Shown: positions 2,313-18,561 of the stretch, one piece after another
How the letters are laid out: every line of letters starts with the position of its first letter
Position numbering within the stretch: position 1 is the first letter of the stretch
DNA from: a virus
Taxonomy: Duplodnaviria > Heunggongvirae > Uroviricota > Caudoviricetes
Length of the DNA stretch: 19,770 nt
Strand: one strand, 5' to 3'
IMG/VR virus record: IMGVR_UViG_2695420763_000003
Translations under genes and position numbers: made by a program
Notes under the pieces: model-generated
What the model was told of the DNA's origin: nothing
Database searches by the model: none
What the model saw: only the letters and a program-made list of their open reading frames with translations

Positions 2313-2507
2313 ATGTCAACGAAGAACAGAACCCGCAGAACAACAACCCGCAACATCCGCTTTCCTAACCAAATGATTGAACAAATTAACATCGCTCTTG
2401 AGCAAAAAGGGTCTGGGAATTTCTCAGCCTGGGTCATTGAAGCCTGCCGTCGGAGACTAACGTCAGAAAAGAGAGCATATACATCAATCCAAAGTGATGA
2501 TGGATGA
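2313..2507 (+). CDS. Small putative ribbon-helix-helix (Arc/CopG-like) DNA-binding protein, 64 aa
   Basis: Track ORF MSTKNRTRRTTTRNIRFPNQMIEQINIALEQKGSGNFSAWVIEACRRRL... has a basic N-terminus, then a beta-strand-like NIRFP followed by two short helices, the pattern of RHH proteins. An AT-rich palindrome-containing region (2150-2300) lies upstream. The fold is inferred from sequence pattern only. Confidence 0.45.
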   Translation: MSTKNRTRRTTTRNIRFPNQMIEQINIALEQKGSGNFSAWVIEACRRRLTSEKRAYTSIQSDDG

Positions 2508-3460: not shown

Positions 3461-3898
3461 TTATTTTAAGCACTGCGTCCTGATGTATTCCTGCAGGTAG
3501 TTAACCTGCGCGGTTATCTTGTCGATTCCACCTCGGAGACGGTAATAATTGAGTTCAGCATCTGCTGTAAGTCCTGGGCTTTCTCCATCGCCCATGCTGC
3601 TGGCTCCGGTCGTTGACTTTGCACAGGTGGCGGAGACTTGCAGGCGCTTACGCCCAGCAGAAACATCAGCACGGAGACTTTCGATAGTCGCATTAGCATC
3701 AGCAAGCTCCTTTGTGTATCTGGCGTCAAGTTCTGCTACATCACGTTGCCGCTTCTGCATATCAGCGATGATGGATGTGGCTTTATCGCGCTGCTCTTTG
3801 TAGGCGATGGCGTTATCACGGTAATGATTAACAGCCCATGACAGGCAGGCGATAATGCAGATAACCAGAGCGGAGATAATAACGGTTACCCTGCTCAT
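3461..3898 (-). CDS. Rz: i-spanin Rz
   Basis: [39 protein letters not shown]... resembles lambda Rz with its N-terminal TM segment. The ATG at 3898 overlaps the R stop (ATGA). The track ORF starts at an upstream GTG (3910). Confidence 0.85.
3514..3699 (-). CDS. Rz1: o-spanin Rz1 lipoprotein, embedded in the +1 frame of Rz
   Basis: Track ORF 3514..3729 contains [36 protein letters not shown]..., a signal peptide with lipobox-like VSAC and a proline-rich mature region, fully inside Rz as in lambda. Exact start is uncertain. Confidence 0.6.
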
Positions 3899-4392
3899 TG
3901 TTGCCCCCACAAACAGACTTCACGCTCAATCTCGCGGCGAGTCATCAGCCCTTTCCATTGCTTACCGCCAGCGTATGTCCAGCGCCGTAGCTGATCACAT
4001 GCGCCTTTGATATCGCCCTGGTTTATTTTGCGAAGAAGCGTCGATGTTCTGAAATTGCCAGCGCCCACGTTGTAAACGAACGAGTAAAGAGCGCCGCGCG
4101 TTGTTTCCGGTATATCGACGTTGATGTACGGGTTAATTTGTCTGGCGACCGTGGCAAGGTCTTTATTCAGGAGGGCTTTGCATTCTGCTTCGGTATACGT
4201 TTTACCGGGCATGATGTCTTTTCCGGTGTGTCCGTGACATACAGTCCATACGCCAACGATATCTTTGTATGGTATGTAGCTGACACCTTCCAGACCATCG
4301 TTACCACCTGGACCAGTGATGAGCACAGACGCTATGGCAACAGCCCCACTACCAATAGCAGCTGCAACAGCCTTGCGTAATGACGGCGACAT
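3895..4392 (-). CDS. R: SAR endolysin (P21 R-type lysozyme)
   Basis: 165-aa [60 protein letters not shown]... is near-identical to the phage 21 R endolysin as recalled, with its glycine/alanine-rich N-terminal SAR segment. Confidence 0.9.
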
Positions 4393-4598
4393 TATTCACC
4401 TCTCGCAGCCTTACGCTTATCTTCTTTAATCTTGAAATAAAGATTTGTCAGATACGTCAGCAGGCCAAACAGCAGACTTCCCAGCACACCTATTGCCACC
4501 CACTGGGACGGAGAGACTTTGTCCAGCAGCTGCAGTAACCAGTATCCCGTCCCCACCGCTGACGTGGTGTATGACACACCTGTTGTGATTTTTTCCAT
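4392..4598 (-). CDS. S: Pinholin (S21-type holin)
   Basis: 68-aa [68 protein letters not shown] resembles phage 21 pinholin S21. Its stop overlaps the R start. Confidence 0.85.
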
Positions 4599-4640
4599 CT
4601 GATGTATGTCTCCGTCACCGCCGACAGAAAATGAAAGTAA

Positions 4641-4679
4641 AGAAAAACAAAAAAGCCGCCAGTGTCACCCACTGACGGC
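4641..4679 (-). terminator. Intrinsic terminator about 45 nt upstream of the S start, in the late-transcript direction
   Basis: Minus-strand RNA GCCGUCAGUG-GGUGA-CACUGGCGGC forms a 10-bp stem (one G-U pair) followed by UUUUUUGUUUUUC. Confidence 0.5.
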
Positions 4680-4853
4680 CAACGCCGGGAGCCGTGATTA
4701 TGGCATTCAGGCTCTGCTAAAAATGCCAGATAACATTCCGGCCTCCCCTGATTCAGGTTATAAATGACACAATATCTTGACAACATCCGTCACTGTCTGT
4801 CAGAAAATGTACTGCCATATAGAAGCAACATGTGAAGTACATCTATCCTTTTG

Positions 4854-4896
4854 AGCCAGCACCTCTCCACCGAAAGTCAGTGCTGGCTGTTTTTTT
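4854..4896 (+). terminator. Plus-strand intrinsic terminator (unit A)
   Basis: 9-bp stem AGCCAGCAC (4854-4862) / GUGCUGGCU (4880-4888), 17-nt loop, then GTTTTTTT. Confidence 0.5.
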
Positions 4897-5003
4897 CCTT
4901 AATAAGGCATCTGTAACTGAAACAATCCGCATATTGATAATATATTGACAGGCATCATTGCTGTCTGTGAAAAATAAGTCTCTACAAACATATAAGGCCT
5001 TTT

Positions 5004-5045
5004 AGCCAGCGTCTTCTTTTTCAGGTCAGTCGCTGGCTTTTTTTA
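5004..5045 (+). terminator. Plus-strand intrinsic terminator (unit B)
   Basis: 8-bp stem AGCCAGCG (5004-5011) / CGCTGGCT (5031-5038), 19-nt loop, then TTTTTTT. It ends exactly at the stop codon of the convergent esterase gene. Confidence 0.5.
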
Positions 5046-6896
5046 TTATGCTGCCGGTGCATTTATCTCCAGCATCAGACTTTCTATCTCAACGCCATAC
5101 GCTGCATTTTTTGTAACATCCGTCAGCGTCAGCGCATTCAGTCCCAGTGTCAGACTGTCTTTTATAACCTGGAATGCCGGGCCAGCCACTCCATTCAGTT
5201 TCGGAGTAACCGTGGCACTGCCGGCGGTGAACACCAGCTCCAGCGTCTGCCAGTCGTTACCGTAATCGCCGAACTCCCCCAGCTTCGTGTTTCCGGCTTT
5301 CCTGTGATGCATCAGATTCACTCTGCCGTCAGTGGTCTGAGTGAAGTACGACATCAGGAACGGATTACCGGTACCCGTCATCGCCACACCATCAGGAACG
5401 GGAGCATCCGTATACAGATAAATCCCCAGCCCGAACTGATTGTTGGTCAGTGCGCCTGACAGGCGGAACTTACAGGTCAGTCTGCCGCCCTGTGTCAGCA
5501 GGGTAATTGCGTCATCCACCGGATGCGTCAGGGACCAGGTTTTATTGCTCTGCTTGGTGATCTTAAATACACCATCTGACAACTGAATTCCGCCATCCTT
5601 AATGCTCCAGCCCTGCGCAGCAGCCTCTCCGGCTGCCGGCAGCAGGGAGATTGTGCGAACGGACGTATCTGCAGACGGACCCGATGGCGTGTTGCCGCCG
5701 GGCGAGGGTTTGATTTCCGGTGCCTTACCACTGATGAAGGCTGAGGTGCGCCCGGCTGCGTTCAGAATAGCGGTTGCCAGACGATCCGGAATAATGCTCC
5801 TGCGCGCCCATGAACTGAAATGTGTCGGGCGGTTTGATGATACCTGGTTTCCATTCGTTCTCGATGCCGCACCGTAATATCCTGATGCCGGAATATCCGG
5901 ATCTTCTGCCGGCGCGTTAGTGGCGGTATTGACGCCGTTACCGTCTGTCATGAAGGGCACAAAATAAACGCCCTCACTCTCCCTGTTTTTGTACGCCCCG
6001 TAAATGGTGTTGTACTGGGTGCCGTAGGTATTTTTCCAGTAATACGTCGTGTCACCACAAATCCACGGCACATCTGCAGCACTGCCACCATGGCACTGCG
6101 CGTTAAACACGGAGAGGTCAGCACGAAACTGTGTCAGCATGGCTGTAAACAGCGCAGGTTGCTGTGCGTGGGTGGCGGCGCTCATGTCAAACTCTCCCTG
6201 CATCCAGCACACCGCCAGCAACACATTTTTCGGGTTCTTCTGTAATGCAGCTTTGGTGCGCGCAATCAGGTCCTGATATAACGGTTTACCCACACCCCAG
6301 CGCGCCGAATCCTGGCTGGCCCCCGTGTCCGCACTGAATGTCCCCTCCGCGCCCTGGGTAAATGCCGAACCACCACGACAGCATGGTACCAGCAGGATCC
6401 CCGCGTTATTCGGGATATACGGGAGCAGTTTTTTGGCAATATGTAAACCCTGGCCGACACAGCCGTACTGCCCTTTGCTCAGGTCTGCCTTCGGATGATT
6501 CAGCGTACTCATATCCTGCACATCATGCAGGCAGTGGTCGGCCGGAATAATATCGTTATATCTGCAGGCAGCCCCACCCGGCGTCACTGTACTGCGGCGC
6601 GCCAGCTGTTTAATGCGCGGATCCGGAGCATCGTATGAATCCGGCAGCGGAAGCCCTTCACCGTAAGCCATGGCATTGGATTGCCCGGCCAGTACGATGA
6701 CGTAGTACCAATCCGGCTCAGTTGCACCACTGACCACCACATCACCTTCTGCTGTAATCGCCTGCATCAGGGTATAAGGGGTTATGGCCACCGGACTACC
6801 AAACGGCTGCCAGCCCTCTTTCAGTTTGTGTGTCAGCTTTTCCGCAAGGTCTGACGGCGACGCCGCCCTGACAACATCATAATGTTTAAATGTCAT
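5046..6896 (-). CDS. nanS-p: Prophage sialate O-acetylesterase, NanS-p type (DUF1737 N-domain + SGNH/SASA esterase + C-terminal domain)
   Basis: 616-aa ORF. The N-terminus MTFKHYDVVRAASPSDLAEKLTHKLKEGWQPFGSPV is DUF1737-like. VIVLAGQSNAMAYGEG carries the GQSN motif of SGNH/SASA esterases. The C-terminal ~200 aa are Gly/Thr-rich and beta-rich. Position between Q and S matches nanS-p genes of Stx and related prophages. Confidence 0.8.
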   Translation of the reverse strand: MTFKHYDVVRAASPSDLAEKLTHKLKEGWQPFGSPVAITPYTLMQAITAEGDVVVSGATEPDWYYVIVLAGQSNAMAYGEGLPLPDSYDAPDPRIKQLARRSTVTPGGAACRYNDIIPADHCLHDVQDMSTLNHPKADLSKGQYGCVGQGLHIAKKLLPYIPNNAGILLVPCCRGGSAFTQGAEGTFSADTGASQDSARWGVGKPLYQDLIARTKAALQKNPKNVLLAVCWMQGEFDMSAATHAQQPALFTAMLTQFRADLSVFNAQCHGGSAADVPWICGDTTYYWKNTYGTQYNTIYGAYKNRESEGVYFVPFMTDGNGVNTATNAPAEDPDIPASGYYGAASRTNGNQVSSNRPTHFSSWARRSIIPDRLATAILNAAGRTSAFISGKAPEIKPSPGGNTPSGPSADTSVRTISLLPAAGEAAAQGWSIKDGGIQLSDGVFKITKQSNKTWSLTHPVDDAITLLTQGGRLTCKFRLSGALTNNQFGLGIYLYTDAPVPDGVAMTGTGNPFLMSYFTQTTDGRVNLMHHRKAGNTKLGEFGDYGNDWQTLELVFTAGSATVTPKLNGVAGPAFQVIKDSLTLGLNALTLTDVTKNAAYGVEIESLMLEINAPAA

Positions 6897-6984: not shown

Positions 6985-7079
6985 AAGAAATGAAGAAGGC
7001 CACGCAGTTGCGCAGCCTGATAAACCCTGGTTAAAATCCACACGATAACAACACAACAATATCAGTATCTCATGCTATT

Positions 7080-7105
7080 GCCCGAACCCATTCGGGCATT
7101 TTTTA
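7080..7105 (+). terminator. Plus-strand intrinsic terminator
   Basis: GCCCGAA-CCCA-TTCGGGC (7-bp stem) followed by ATTTTTT. Confidence 0.45.
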
Positions 7106-7110
7106 CCCAT

Positions 7111-7141
7111 AAAAAATGCCCCTCCGGAGAGGGGCATTTTT
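7111..7141. terminator. Bidirectional intrinsic terminator
   Basis: AAAAAA-TGCCCCTC-CGGA-GAGGGGCA-TTTTT: 8-bp GC-rich stem with an A-run on one side and a T-run on the other. Confidence 0.55.
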
Positions 7142-7338
7142 GCATGCACATTCTTTTTCTTGCATGGTGCCGGGTGCCTCCCGGTGAATTCAGTATCAGC
7201 ACCTGAATCCGCGATTATCACATATACCTACTTGCTGATTGCCCCTCCGCACAGGGGGATTCACCATGCAGTAGTATTTTTAATAAACAGCAAATAAAAA
7301 AATCAAGCATTATGCAGGCTGTTTCTTTTTATCACCGG

Positions 7339-10765: not shown

Positions 10766-10921
10766 TTACTCCTCAGGTTCGTAAGCTGTGAAGACAGCGA
10801 CCTCCGTCTGGCCGGTTCGGATTCGTACCTCGCAGAGGTCTTTCCTCGTTACCAGTGCCGTCACTATGACGGTTAAACAGATGACGATCAGGGCGATTAA
10901 CATCGCCTTTTGCTGCTTCAT
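10766..10921 (-). CDS. hokD: Type I toxin Hok (HokD/RelF-like, 51 aa)
   Basis: MKQQKAMLIALIVICLTVIVTALVTRKDLCEVRIRTGQTEVAVFTAYEPEE with AAGGAG RBS. The track ORF 10766..10978 adds an in-frame 19-codon upstream extension (mok-like). The upstream leader carries a 9-bp inverted repeat (11043-11051 / 11070-11078). Confidence 0.9.
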   Translation of the reverse strand: MKQQKAMLIALIVICLTVIVTALVTRKDLCEVRIRTGQTEVAVFTAYEPEE

Positions 10922-11166
10922 AGCCTGCTTCTCCTTGCCTTTCGGCGCGTAAGAGGCTAACCTACATGTGTCTAGCATGAAATTGGCCTCAGATTAATGT
11001 TAGGCGTCTTGCAGGACGCGTAATGTTAACTGGGGCTTTTCTCTGTCTGCCTTACGGTGGCATGCCCGAGGCAGACAGCCTCAAGCGCCCGCAGCAATTC
11101 TACTTAACTCTCGCTTTACCGCAAACCGTTTTTACCCGATATGGGAATTCCCATATCGTAATGAAT

Positions 11167-18507: not shown

Positions 18508-18561
18508 TTTTCTGGTGACTTTTGGCGGTATCAGTTCTACTCCGTGACTGCTCTGCCGCCC
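18508..18561 (+). ncRNA. dicF: DicF small RNA (ftsZ-targeting sRNA processed from the dicB operon transcript)
   Basis: TTTCTGGTGACTTTTGGCGGTATCAGTTCTACTCCGTGACTGCTCTGCCGCCC followed by TTTTT matches the 53-nt K-12 DicF sequence as I recall it, with about 3 substitutions. It ends in a GGCGG...GCCGCC terminator hairpin. Coordinates are from my own line indexing and were not re-verified to the base. Confidence 0.75.

What the first reader, a model, noticed from the sequence alone, without database searches (positions are those of the whole stretch)
4771..5045. Tandem duplicated hairpin units antisense to the late transcript between the esterase and the lysis genes
Two diverged copies of one module sit head to tail: TTGACA, 10 nt, CTGTCTGT, A-rich block, about 50 nt, then an 8-9-bp AGCCAGC(A/G)...(C/T)GCTGGCT stem with a T7 run. 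The terminators work only on the plus strand, opposite to every neighbouring gene. That suggests a pair of small antisense RNAs or a duplicated convergent-transcription stop. Spacing from TTGACA to any good -10 hexamer is poor, so the promoter is unproven.
Basis: seen in the sequence. Interest (0 to 1): 0.6.

Follow-up and report, generated by a model that had tools for sequence, protein, structure and literature searches.

The report
Two tandem prophage small-RNA genes

Summary
Window 4777-5047 (+) carries two diverged copies of one module: TTGACA, 10 nt, CTGTCTGT, an A-rich block, a short body, CCTTTT, then an AGCCAGC(A/G)...(C/T)GCTGGCT hairpin and a T-run. The copies lie between the sialate esterase gene (5046-6896, -) and the holin gene (4392-4598, -).

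The similarity is far above chance (z = 10.3; 0 of 3000 shuffles).

Unit 1 is 100% identical to PasA of EPEC E2348/69 (window 4812-4896). PasA is a Northern-validated, Hfq-dependent sRNA with 41 RIL-seq partners. Its 236-nt minor isoform ends at the unit 2 terminator.

Unit 2 (about 4981-5047) matches the EHEC Hfq-crosslink clusters EcOnc51 and EcOnc52, and the sRNA-like RIL-seq entry "pasA.E2348C_0688.IGR".

The tandem is the main architecture. It occurs at about 2,600 places in 679 of 5,426 complete E. coli genomes, and also in E. albertii.

PasC is a one-unit fusion: unit 1 promoter and body joined to a unit 2-type terminator.

Three things remain open: the promoters, unit 2's independent transcription, and any cis effect on the late transcript.

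Two small points appear new. The locus is a diverged tandem duplication, which a 2026 preprint denies for pasA, and PasC originates from it.

Verdict: already known; modest interest.

The parts
4777..4808 (+). Unit 1 promoter-like block: -35 TTGACA (4777-4782), 10 nt, CTGTCTGT (4793-4800), and A-rich candidate -10 sequences (TGT-CAGAAA with an 18-nt spacer, or GAAAAT 4803-4808 with a 20-nt spacer).
   Evidence: Sequence. Nearly invariant in all unit 1 and PasC loci. The PasA 5' end at 4812 lies 30 nt downstream of the TTGACA. Promoter function is inferred, not shown.
4812..4896 (+). PasA sRNA, the major 85-nt form (the transcript of unit 1).
   Evidence: The window is identical, without gaps, to E2348/69 NC_011601.1 over 4590-5110. 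Table S6 of PMC8550237 gives PasA as 743499 to 743415 on the minus strand. The mapping w = 5046 + 743265 - x comes from the esterase stop codon. The Northern probe matches 4863-4887 exactly.
4855..4864 (+). Published predicted PasA seed, GCCAGCACCU, lying in the 5' arm of the terminator stem. The matching position in unit 2 is GCCAGCGUCU (5005-5014).
   Evidence: Fig. S5 text of PMC8550237; sequence.
4854..4896 (+). Unit 1 intrinsic terminator and Hfq module: 9-bp stem (4854-4862 with 4880-4888), 17-nt loop, G, then U7. It is preceded by CCUUUU at 4847-4852.
   Evidence: fold; stem covariation; annotated as a terminator in the phage 434 record.
4945..4975 (+). Unit 2 promoter-like block: -35 TTGACA (4945-4950), 10 nt, CTGTCTGT (4961-4968), and A-rich candidate -10 sequences (TGT-GAAAAA with an 18-nt spacer, or AAAAAT 4970-4975 with a 19-nt spacer).
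   Evidence: Retained with about 20 nt of upstream sequence in loci that have unit 2 only (Sakai Sp4 and a plasmid). Function is inferred.
4981..5047 (+). Unit 2 RNA, about 66 nt. The 5' end is inferred; the 3' end is at the second terminator. It corresponds to EcOnc51/EcOnc52 of EHEC Sakai and to 'pasA.E2348C_0688.IGR' of EPEC.
   Evidence: EcOnc52 maps to window 4979-5056 (the coordinate shift is about 0 in Sp4). EcOnc51 maps to unit 2 of Sp12 once the +132 to +149 shift is applied. RIL-seq: 5 partners, fraction as RNA2 = 1, U-tract of 7. The fold has z = -3.35.
5004..5044 (+). Unit 2 intrinsic terminator: 8-bp stem (5004-5011 with 5031-5038) plus 2 further pairs, then a U-run at 5039-5044. 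It is preceded by CCUUUU at 4998-5003.
   Evidence: (I8). Annotated as a terminator in the phage 434 record.
4812..5047 (+). Minor 236-nt PasA isoform: read-through of terminator 1 that stops at terminator 2.
   Evidence: Table S6 of PMC8550237 gives the minor end as 743264, which is window 5047.
5046..6896 (-). Sialate O-acetylesterase gene (NanS-p type; DUF1737, SASA and DUF6645 domains). Its stop codon abuts the unit 2 terminator.
5058..5088 (-). RIL-seq target site of PasA in the last codons of the esterase mRNA (motif CUGAUGCUGGA).
   Evidence: Table S7 text of PMC8550237; exact match in the window.
4392..4598 (-). Class II (P21-type) holin gene S, the first lysis gene downstream on the late transcript.
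4654..4680 (-). Strong intrinsic terminator on the late strand, between the PasA promoter and the holin ribosome-binding site. This is context only and not part of the duplicated module.
   Evidence: 11-bp stem, 7 G-C pairs, T-run. Annotated as a terminator in the phage 434 record.

Best explanation
Window 4777-5047 (+) is a diverged tandem pair of small-RNA genes. They are carried as a "moron" between the prophage esterase gene and the holin gene, and are transcribed against the Q-dependent late operon.

Each unit has three parts:
- its own sigma-70-type promoter, with a perfect -35 TTGACA and a weak A-rich -10 (inferred);
- a short body;
- a canonical Hfq module, made of CCUUUU, a G+C-rich hairpin and a U-tail. 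This module also acts as the intrinsic terminator.

Unit 1 makes PasA (85 nt, 4812-4896). This is shown on identical DNA in EPEC. Unit 2 makes an RNA of about 66 nt (about 4981-5047). It has been seen as an Hfq-bound species in EHEC and EPEC.

Terminator 1 leaks. Read-through RNA polymerase is stopped by terminator 2 at the esterase stop codon, which gives the 236-nt isoform. No antisense RNA therefore enters the esterase gene.

Both RNAs are expressed from the silent prophage and act in trans, with Hfq, on host and virulence mRNAs. They use a seed that overlaps the 5' arm of the terminator: GCCAGCACCU in unit 1 and GCCAGCGUCU in unit 2. The single-base difference implies partly different target sets (inferred).

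PasC, the related published sRNA, is a one-unit derivative. It has the unit 1 promoter and body fused at the AGCCAGC repeat to a unit 2-type terminator.

My sub-confidences are:
- unit 1 is PasA: about 0.97;
- unit 2 is a true paralogue that yields an Hfq-bound RNA: about 0.85;
- unit 2 has its own promoter: about 0.6.
For: **Identity of unit 1**
- The window is base-for-base identical to the E2348/69 PP2 locus over 4590-5110.
- The PasA probe matches 4863-4887.
- PasA is Northern-validated and Hfq-dependent. It has 41 unique RIL-seq partners and 4,983 chimeric fragments, and is the second RNA in 94% of them under activating conditions.
- The minor isoform ends at window 5047.

**Unit 2**
- EcOnc52 maps to window 4979-5056 and EcOnc51 maps to unit 2 of Sp12. 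The coordinate shift between genome versions was determined with STnc100, EcOnc05 and EcOnc08 in Sp4, and with HnrS/EcOnc10 in Sp12.
- The RIL-seq entry for the unit 2 region has 5 partners and is always the second RNA of its chimeras.

**Paralogy**
- z = 10.3 against shuffles.
- Shared blocks are AATAT-TTGACA-N10-CTGTCTGT-A-rich, AACAT, and CCTTTT-AGCCAGC...GCTGGCT-T-run.

**Terminator stems**
- 91% of cells are paired, against 21-54% in slid controls.
- Pair 8 is A-U in unit 1 and G-C in unit 2 and PasC.

**Conservation of the tandem**
- The junction query has 2,616 places in 679 of 5,426 complete E. coli genomes, median 4 per genome.
- E. albertii carries the tandem at 98% identity.
- The phage 434 record and 22 Stx1a-converting phage records (plus YYZ-2008 and H-19B) carry it.

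**PasC as a fusion**
- PasC loci lack exactly the 150-nt period.
- One tandem, L126, carries the PasC-type terminator on unit 2.
Against: - I found no transcription-start data for either unit. The best -10 candidates are weak or lie 18-20 nt from the -35, and the consensus scan did not call them.
- The 2026 preprint says the PasA 5' end is made by cleavage of a longer transcript.
- The authors who mapped the locus treat the unit 2 region as the tail of a read-through PasA isoform, not as a separate gene.
- No Northern result is listed for EcOnc51 or EcOnc52. The unit 2 copies in Sp12 and Sp4 are identical, so crosslink reads map to both. Expression of the copy that lacks unit 1 is therefore not proven.
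- The PasA fold as a whole is not unusually stable (z = -1.3).
- No regulatory outcome has been shown for any PasA or unit 2 target.
Confidence: 0.8

Rival explanations
1. There is one gene and a fail-safe terminator. Only unit 1 has a working promoter. Unit 2 is a decayed duplicate whose only role is to stop read-through from PasA before it enters the esterase gene. The RNA seen over unit 2 is the 3' part of the 236-nt isoform, or a processing product of it.
For: The 236-nt isoform exists, and the depositors list the unit 2 region under PasA. Unit 2 has far fewer chimeric fragments than PasA: 119 and 54 against 4,983 and 116. In one genome unit 2 has lost its terminator (dog isolate).
Against: The TTGACA-N10-CTGTCTGT-A-rich block is conserved between the two units, although a pure terminator would not need it. 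Unit 2 is the more conserved unit: 32 of the 39 unit 2 hairpins found have identical upstream 95-mers. Loci with unit 2 only keep the promoter block intact. The EcOnc51 and EcOnc52 clusters begin close to the predicted start site.
Confidence: 0.25
2. The units act in cis as antisense regulators of the late transcript. Both RNAs are perfectly complementary to the esterase-holin intergenic part of the late mRNA. They would work mainly by pairing with it, leading to RNase III cleavage or transcriptional interference. That could damp leaky holin expression in lysogens or set lysis timing, in the manner of a type I toxin-antitoxin pair.
For: - The genes converge on the late operon, 215-450 nt upstream of the start codon of a lethal membrane protein.
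- A strong late-strand terminator at 4680-4654 already insulates the holin gene, which suggests selection against leakage.
- Late-strand RNA antisense to the PasA 5' end (window 4799-4817) is found on Hfq: 798 chimeric fragments, all with PasB.
Against: - Nothing shows PasA pairing with its own antisense.
- RIL-seq partners of PasA are mostly trans-encoded coding regions and 5' UTRs, 36 of 41.
- The RNAs do not overlap the holin ribosome-binding site or coding sequence.
- Many prophages carry only one unit or a fused unit.
- This reading does not exclude trans action.
Confidence: 0.12
3. The conserved blocks are promoters for the other strand. Read on the - strand, each unit gives CAGACA-N17-(G/T)ATATT: 4799-4771 for unit 1 and 4967-4939 for unit 2. 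These would drive late-strand RNAs toward the holin gene. On this view the + strand RNAs are secondary.
For: The unit 2 version scores 9 of 12 in the consensus scan, whereas the + strand TTGACA promoters were not called. This reading would explain why AATAT(C/A) and TGTCTG are both conserved between units. Late-strand RNA is present over 4799-4817 in lysogens.
Against: Promoter-like hits in this region are no more frequent than in shuffles. The perfect TTGACA would fall in the spacer and would need no conservation. The experimentally seen abundant RNAs are on the + strand and end at the + strand terminators. Both readings may hold together, as face-to-face promoters.
Confidence: 0.1
4. The hairpins are only structural punctuation of the late mRNA, for example 3' stabilisers of the esterase message or processing sites, or they are copies of a dispersed repeat. 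No small RNA would be involved.
For: The hairpins also fold on the - strand (z = -2.3 and -3.0) and lie just 3' of the esterase stop codon.
Against: T-runs follow the stems only on the + strand. Discrete + strand RNAs are documented. The units are found only at this one syntenic position and nowhere else.
Confidence: 0.03

Closest known systems
PasA (pathogenicity-associated sRNA A) of EPEC E2348/69, from Pearl Mizrahi et al. 2021 (PMC8550237)
   Same: Unit 1 is this gene. The sequence is 100% identical over the 85-nt RNA and over its flanks. The position is the same (esterase, PasA, holin), as are the antisense orientation and the terminator.
   Different: Nothing differs in sequence. The published description does not treat the downstream 150 nt as a second, paralogous gene.
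EcOnc51 / EcOnc52 Hfq-CRAC clusters of EHEC Sakai, from Tree et al. 2014 (PMC4104026)
   Same: Both map to unit 2, in prophages Sp12 and Sp4. The Sakai unit 2 differs from the window's by a 2-nt loop deletion and one extra C before the T-run.
   Different: They were catalogued only as crosslink clusters of 77-78 nt. There is no Northern blot, no ends and no function. Later work cited them as PasA homologues without separating the two units.
PasC of EPEC E2348/69 and phage 2B8
   Same: The promoter and 5' body are those of unit 1, and the terminator is a unit 2 allele. It abuts the esterase stop codon just as unit 2 does.
   Different: PasC is a single unit, 150 nt shorter. Its terminator has an 11-bp stem and an 8-nt loop. 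It is found at 262 places in 206 genomes, against about 2,600 for the tandem junction.
AgvB / AsxR anti-sRNAs (Rfam RF02702, RF02703)
   Same: These are also short Hfq-bound RNAs in the late-region moron site of lambdoid prophages, transcribed against the late operon. They too have a conserved 3' part and a variable 5' part. An AgvB copy lies on the other side of the same esterase gene, at 7043-7104.
   Different: There is no sequence or model similarity: the Rfam models do not hit 4771-5047 even at E = 10. They sit on the other side of the esterase gene, between it and the late promoter. No sponge activity is known for PasA.
Tandemly duplicated sRNA pairs such as OmrA/OmrB (E. coli) and PrrF1/PrrF2 (Pseudomonas)
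   Same: These are adjacent paralogous sRNA genes in the same orientation. Each has its own promoter and terminator, with one part conserved and another diverged. In PrrF there is also a read-through product spanning both (from my own knowledge of those systems).
   Different: They are unrelated in sequence, encoded in the core genome, and have known regulators (OmpR, Fur). Here the regulator is unknown and the second promoter is unproven.

Membership tests
PasA sRNA | Sequence identity to E2348CN_0003 (NC_011601.1, 743499-743415, minus strand) | tested here: met
   The gapless alignment is identical over window 4590-5110. The probe matches 4863-4887 exactly.
PasA sRNA | Lies between the prophage sialate esterase gene and the class II holin gene, convergent with the esterase | tested here: met
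   ORFs and Pfam: SASA/DUF6645 esterase at 5046-6896 (-) and P21-type holin at 4392-4598 (-). The RefSeq annotation of the identical locus agrees.
PasA sRNA | 3' stem-loop with a poly-U tail (intrinsic terminator and Hfq site) | tested here: met
   9-bp stem followed by U7; the stem covaries with its paralogues.
PasA sRNA | Hfq-dependent accumulation and Hfq-mediated pairing with mRNAs | not testable with these tools
   Taken from PMC8550237 for identical DNA in another strain.
EcOnc51/52 (unit 2 RNA) | Co-location with the published Hfq-CRAC clusters after correcting for the genome version | tested here: met
   The shift is about 0 in Sp4 and +132 to +149 in Sp12. Both clusters then fall on unit 2.
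EcOnc51/52 (unit 2 RNA) | Independent transcription from its own promoter | tested here: inconclusive
   The promoter block is conserved and is kept in loci with unit 2 only. However, I found no start-site data, and reads map to several identical copies.
AgvB/AsxR anti-sRNA family (Rfam RF02702/RF02703) | Match to the Rfam covariance model | tested here: not met
   There is no hit in 4600-5150 at E up to 10, while AgvB is found at 7043-7104 with 96.5 bits.
Any Rfam family | Score at or above the gathering threshold | tested here: not met
   Only chance-level hits to snoRNA and U12 models, at E = 0.11 to 8.8. PasA is not in Rfam 15.
Dispersed repeat or mobile element | Copies in varied genomic contexts | tested here: not met
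   Every locus I examined lies next to the esterase gene, a frameshifted copy of it or a remnant, and the intact loci have the holin gene on the other side. A scan of 185,579 species genomes found only E. albertii besides chance hits.
Type I toxin-antitoxin antisense RNA | Antisense RNA overlaps the toxin mRNA and blocks its translation or stability | not tested
   The RNAs are complementary to the late transcript 215-450 nt upstream of the holin start codon, but not to its ribosome-binding site or coding sequence. No functional data exist.

The most novel reading that the evidence does not exclude
The duplicated block may be a pair of face-to-face promoters: TTGACA...A-rich on the + strand, overlapping CAGACA-N17-(G/T)ATATT on the late strand. 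PasA and its twin would then be, besides trans-acting sRNAs, the antitoxin-like half of a cis-antisense switch. That switch would control a locally initiated holin-leader RNA, which is seen on Hfq paired with PasB. It would protect lysogens from holin leakage or tune lysis timing.
Probability: 0.08. Interest if true: 0.6.

Novelty: already known. Interest (0 to 1): 0.25.

Why it matters
PasA is among the most connected accessory-genome sRNAs of enteropathogenic E. coli. This locus is present in several copies per genome in most EHEC and EPEC strains.

If the locus is a diverged tandem pair, and PasC a fusion of the two units, three things follow:
- the counting of "PasA" copies and variants changes;
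- the "minor isoform" has an explanation;
- a second, nearly invariant sRNA with a one-base-different seed has been folded into PasA in interactome tables.

This is a refinement of a known system, not a new kind of element.

Tried and rejected
- **Rfam.** I searched at gathering thresholds and at E up to 10. There is no family for either unit.
- **HnrS.** This 66-nt multicopy prophage sRNA (PMC13502914) looked like a candidate for unit 2 because of its size and copy number. It is a different gene, 3 kb away in Sp12, recognised by its mazF-complementary CTACCCAATCAGTAC. It is absent from the window.
- **EcOnc51 mapping.** I first mapped EcOnc51 to unit 1 using the published coordinates directly. 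This was wrong, because the current Sakai record is shifted by 132-149 nt in Sp12 and by about 0 in Sp4. Both clusters fall on unit 2.
- **EcOnc50 probe.** I tried it as a further anchor for the coordinate shift. It was not found in the fetched stretch.
- **"DUF6645" gene.** In some genomes a DUF6645 gene lies next to the tandem, which suggested a different neighbour. It is only a frameshifted esterase gene.
- **Duplex prediction.** RNA duplex prediction between the sRNAs and the esterase 3' end gave unrealistically long duplexes and was not used.
- **Start-site tables.** The supplements of the EHEC dRNA-seq/Term-seq paper are not held, so no start-site table could be read.
- **Small ORFs.**
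  - The 15-codon ORF inside PasA (4807-4854) loses its ATG in the PasA-2 allele.
  - The 98-codon - strand ORF at 4490-4786 has no Pfam match and overlaps the holin gene.
  - I treat both as non-coding.
Full report
**Setting**

The window is the late region of a mosaic lambdoid prophage. No phage record covers more than 36% of it. On the - strand lie:
- an STnc100-type late leader at 7105-7295;
- a 616-aa DUF1737/SASA/DUF6645 sialate esterase gene at 5046-6896;
- a P21-type class II holin gene at 4392-4598;
- a lysozyme gene at 3895-4392.

The finding lies in the 447-nt gap between the esterase stop codon and the holin start codon. Over 4600-5100 the window is 100% identical to phage 434 and 99.4% identical to 21 of the 22 Stx1a-converting phage records and to phage YYZ-2008 (the last Stx1a record is 95.4%). 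Over 4590-5110 it is identical to prophage PP2 of EPEC E2348/69.

TTGACA-N10-CTGTCTGT occurs exactly twice in the window, at 4777 and 4945, both on the + strand. None is expected by chance.

Each copy continues in the same way:
- an A-rich block;
- a short body, 45 nt in unit 1 and 28 nt in unit 2;
- CCTTTT;
- a hairpin, AGCCAGCAC/GTGCTGGCT at 4854-4888 and AGCCAGCG/CGCTGGCT at 5004-5038;
- a T-run.

A semi-global alignment of the two units scores 19.5, against 2.64 +/- 1.63 for 3000 dinucleotide shuffles, and 82 of 110 aligned positions are identical. The promoter-plus-body part alone still gives z = 3.7.

The T-runs follow the stems only on the + strand. The curated phage 434 record annotates both hairpins as terminators on that strand.

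Across eight distinct stem variants, 91% of cells are paired, against 21-54% when the partner column is slid. Pair 8 is A-U in unit 1 and G-C in unit 2 and PasC.

**Unit 1 is PasA**

Table S6 of Pearl Mizrahi et al. 2021 places PasA at NC_011601.1 743499 to 743415 on the minus strand. This is the major 85-nt form. A minor form ends at 743264 and is 236 nt long. The Northern probe is GCCAGCACTGACTTTCGGTGGAGAG.

The esterase stop codon is at 743265 in that record and at 5046 in the window, and the alignment between them has no gaps. It follows that:
- PasA is window 4812-4896;
- the minor form ends at 5047, on the unit 2 terminator;
- the probe is the reverse complement of 4863-4887.

PasA was confirmed by Northern blot and is destabilised without Hfq. 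It has 41 unique RIL-seq partners. Of these, 36 are coding regions or 5' UTRs. PasA is the second RNA in 94-100% of its chimeras.

Its predicted seed, GCCAGCACCU (4855-4864), lies in the 5' arm of the terminator. One of its targets is the 3' end of the neighbouring esterase mRNA, which is window 5058-5088 on the - strand.

**Unit 2 has also been seen, without being recognised as a gene of its own**

In the same RIL-seq data, the region between PasA and the esterase on the PasA strand ("pasA.E2348C_0688.IGR") behaves as follows:
- it has a U-tract of 7 and five partners;
- it is always the second RNA of its chimeras;
- it met the authors' sRNA criteria;
- it was listed under PasA as the read-through form.

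The same table says that homologues exist in EHEC as EcOnc51 and EcOnc52.

Tree et al. 2014 give these clusters at 2237479-2237555 (+, Sp12) and 1181998-1182075 (-, Sp4). Those coordinates refer to an older Sakai record, so I determined the shift to the current one in each prophage.

*Sp4.* The shift is about zero.
- The current record has STnc100 at 1179745-1179935. This contains EcOnc05, published at 1179806-1179914.
- A - strand terminator has its 3' end near 1179936, and the low end of EcOnc08 is at 1179938.

*Sp12.* The shift is +132 to +149.
- The 66-nt sRNA HnrS can be recognised at 2234371-2234436 by its promoter, its terminator and its mazF-complementary CTACCCAATCAGTAC.
- Its published cluster, EcOnc10, is at 2234239-2234287.

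With these shifts EcOnc52 is window 4979-5056, and EcOnc51 falls on unit 2 of Sp12, starting near the predicted start site. Both clusters are therefore unit 2.

In Sp4 an IS629 has replaced everything upstream of window position about 4924, so unit 1 is absent there while the unit 2 promoter block is intact. This would be strong evidence for an independent promoter. However, the unit 2 copies of Sp4 and Sp12 are identical, so reads map to both, and the near-equal read totals suggest exactly that.

**Promoters remain inferred**

For unit 1 the options are TTGACA, an 18-nt spacer (ending in TGT) and CAGAAA, or a 20-nt spacer and GAAAAT. For unit 2 they are an 18-nt spacer (ending in TGT) and GAAAAA, or a 19-nt spacer and AAAAAT. 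The consensus scan called none of these.

In favour of promoters:
- the RNA 5' boundaries at 4812 and about 4979-4982 lie 30-32 nt downstream of each TTGACA;
- the block is nearly invariant in every unit 1, PasC and unit 2 locus examined.

Against them, the 2026 preprint by Zhu, Shabalina and Storz states that the PasA 5' end comes from cleavage of a longer transcript.

The same conserved blocks can also be read on the late strand as CAGACA-N17-(G/T)ATATT. The unit 2 version scores 9 of 12. Late-strand RNA over 4799-4817 is found on Hfq paired with PasB. I keep this reading as a low-probability rival or an addition.

**Distribution and evolution**

| Query | Places | Genomes (of 5,426 complete E. 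coli) |
|---|---|---|
| 336-nt tandem, 4740-5075 | 3,576 | 692 (671 with a place covering at least 80%) |
| Junction, 4850-4990 (terminator 1 to promoter 2) | 2,616 | 679 (median 4, maximum 8 per genome) |
| PasC-type fusion 67-mer | 262 | 206 |

- 33 tandems with a terminator spacing of 149-151 nt;
- 19 PasC-type single units;
- 10 with unit 1 only;
- 6 with unit 2 only;
- one tandem, L126, in which unit 2 carries the PasC-type terminator (confirmed).

Unit 2 is almost invariant. Unit 1 has two major body alleles, which correspond to the published PasA and PasA-2.

Among one genome per species for 185,579 species, the promoter motif found only E. albertii besides chance hits. There the tandem is 98% identical to the window.

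PasC loci carry the unit 1 promoter and body joined at AGCCAGCG to a unit 2-type terminator that abuts the esterase stop codon. They are one 150-nt period shorter. With L126 as the matching parent form, PasC is best read as a deletion between the AGCCAGC repeats of a tandem. This is an inference.

The preprint notes that PasA and PasC align, and concludes they share a common origin. [quoted passage not shown] The diverged copy 150 nt downstream was evidently not counted.

**Mechanism and verdict**

The best-supported reading is two Hfq-dependent, trans-acting sRNA genes expressed from the silent prophage. Their terminators double as Hfq-binding modules, and together they keep antisense transcription out of the esterase gene.

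The status of each part is:
- *Shown on identical DNA elsewhere:* the PasA RNA, its ends, its Hfq dependence, its partners and the read-through isoform.
- *Shown here:* the identity with PasA, the paralogy of the two units, stem covariation, the architecture census, and the re-mapping of EcOnc51/52 to unit 2.
- *Inferred:* both promoters, independent transcription of unit 2, divergence of the seeds, and the origin of PasC.
- *Untested:* any cis effect on the late transcript or on the holin.

The locus is already known. The new points are refinements, so interest is modest.

Noticed in passing
window 7043-7104 (+) and 7105-7295 (-): A perfect AgvB anti-GcvB sRNA (96.5 bits) sits end to end and convergent with an STnc100/PasD-type late leader (146 bits). 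The esterase gene is therefore flanked on both sides by sRNA genes that point against late transcription.
   Followed up: partly
window 4654-4680 (-), also 4725-4742 (-): A strong intrinsic terminator on the late strand (11-bp stem, 7 G-C pairs) lies between the PasA promoter and the holin ribosome-binding site. It would stop any RNA polymerase not modified by Q before the lysis genes. It is also annotated in the phage 434 record. A weaker second candidate lies at 4742-4725.
   Followed up: partly
window 4771-4799 and 4939-4967 (- strand reading): The blocks conserved between the two units also read as - strand promoters, CAGACA-N17-GATATT and CAGACA-N17-TATATT. They overlap the + strand TTGACA promoters face to face. 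The unit 2 copy scores 9 of 12 in the scan.
   Followed up: partly
window 4799-4817 (-), equal to NC_011601.1 743494-743512 (+): Published RIL-seq lists a late-strand RNA antisense to the PasA 5' end. It acts as a target-like partner of the unrelated prophage sRNA PasB, with 19 and 798 chimeric fragments. PasB may therefore act on the holin leader.
   Followed up: no
window 5058-5088 (-): The PasA RIL-seq target motif CUGAUGCUGGA lies in the last codons of the neighbouring esterase gene, 22 nt from its stop codon. The same site in the PP5 esterase is also listed as a PasA target. The sRNA gene and one of its target sites thus travel together.
   Followed up: partly
window 10916-11090 (-): An Rfam sok antitoxin match (115 bits) lies here, with a 70-codon ORF at 10766-10978 on the same strand. 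This is a hok/sok-type toxin-antitoxin module in the prophage.
   Followed up: no
window 18510-18561 (+): A full-length DicF sRNA match (71.5 bits).
   Followed up: no
window 4807-4854 (+): A 15-codon ORF (MYCHIEATCEVHLSF) lies inside PasA. Its ATG is upstream of the mapped 5' end and is ATA in the PasA-2 allele, so it is probably not coding.
   Followed up: yes
window 2453-2505; L012 472-537: Sakai Sp12 carries the 66-nt sRNA HnrS (EcOnc10) about 3 kb beyond the lysis genes. The window matches the flanks at 80-86% identity but has only about 50 nt where Sp12 has about 250 nt, so HnrS is absent here.
   Followed up: yes
L012, L004, L159 against Tree et al. 2014 table S2: Published EcOnc coordinates are offset from the current Sakai RefSeq record by about 0 nt in Sp4 (1.18 Mb) but by +132 to +149 nt in Sp12 (2.23 Mb). 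Anyone using that table with NC_002695.2 will misplace clusters by a whole small-RNA gene.
   Followed up: yes
L006 (E. coli 19KM2326N), L007 (plasmid of 2013C-3513), L011 (pNJS001-2): These are decayed or truncated versions of the locus. In L006 the tandem has lost the unit 2 terminator. L007 is a plasmid copy with unit 2 only and a G.U variant stem. In L011 unit 1 is cut by an IS1203 inside its stem.
   Followed up: partly
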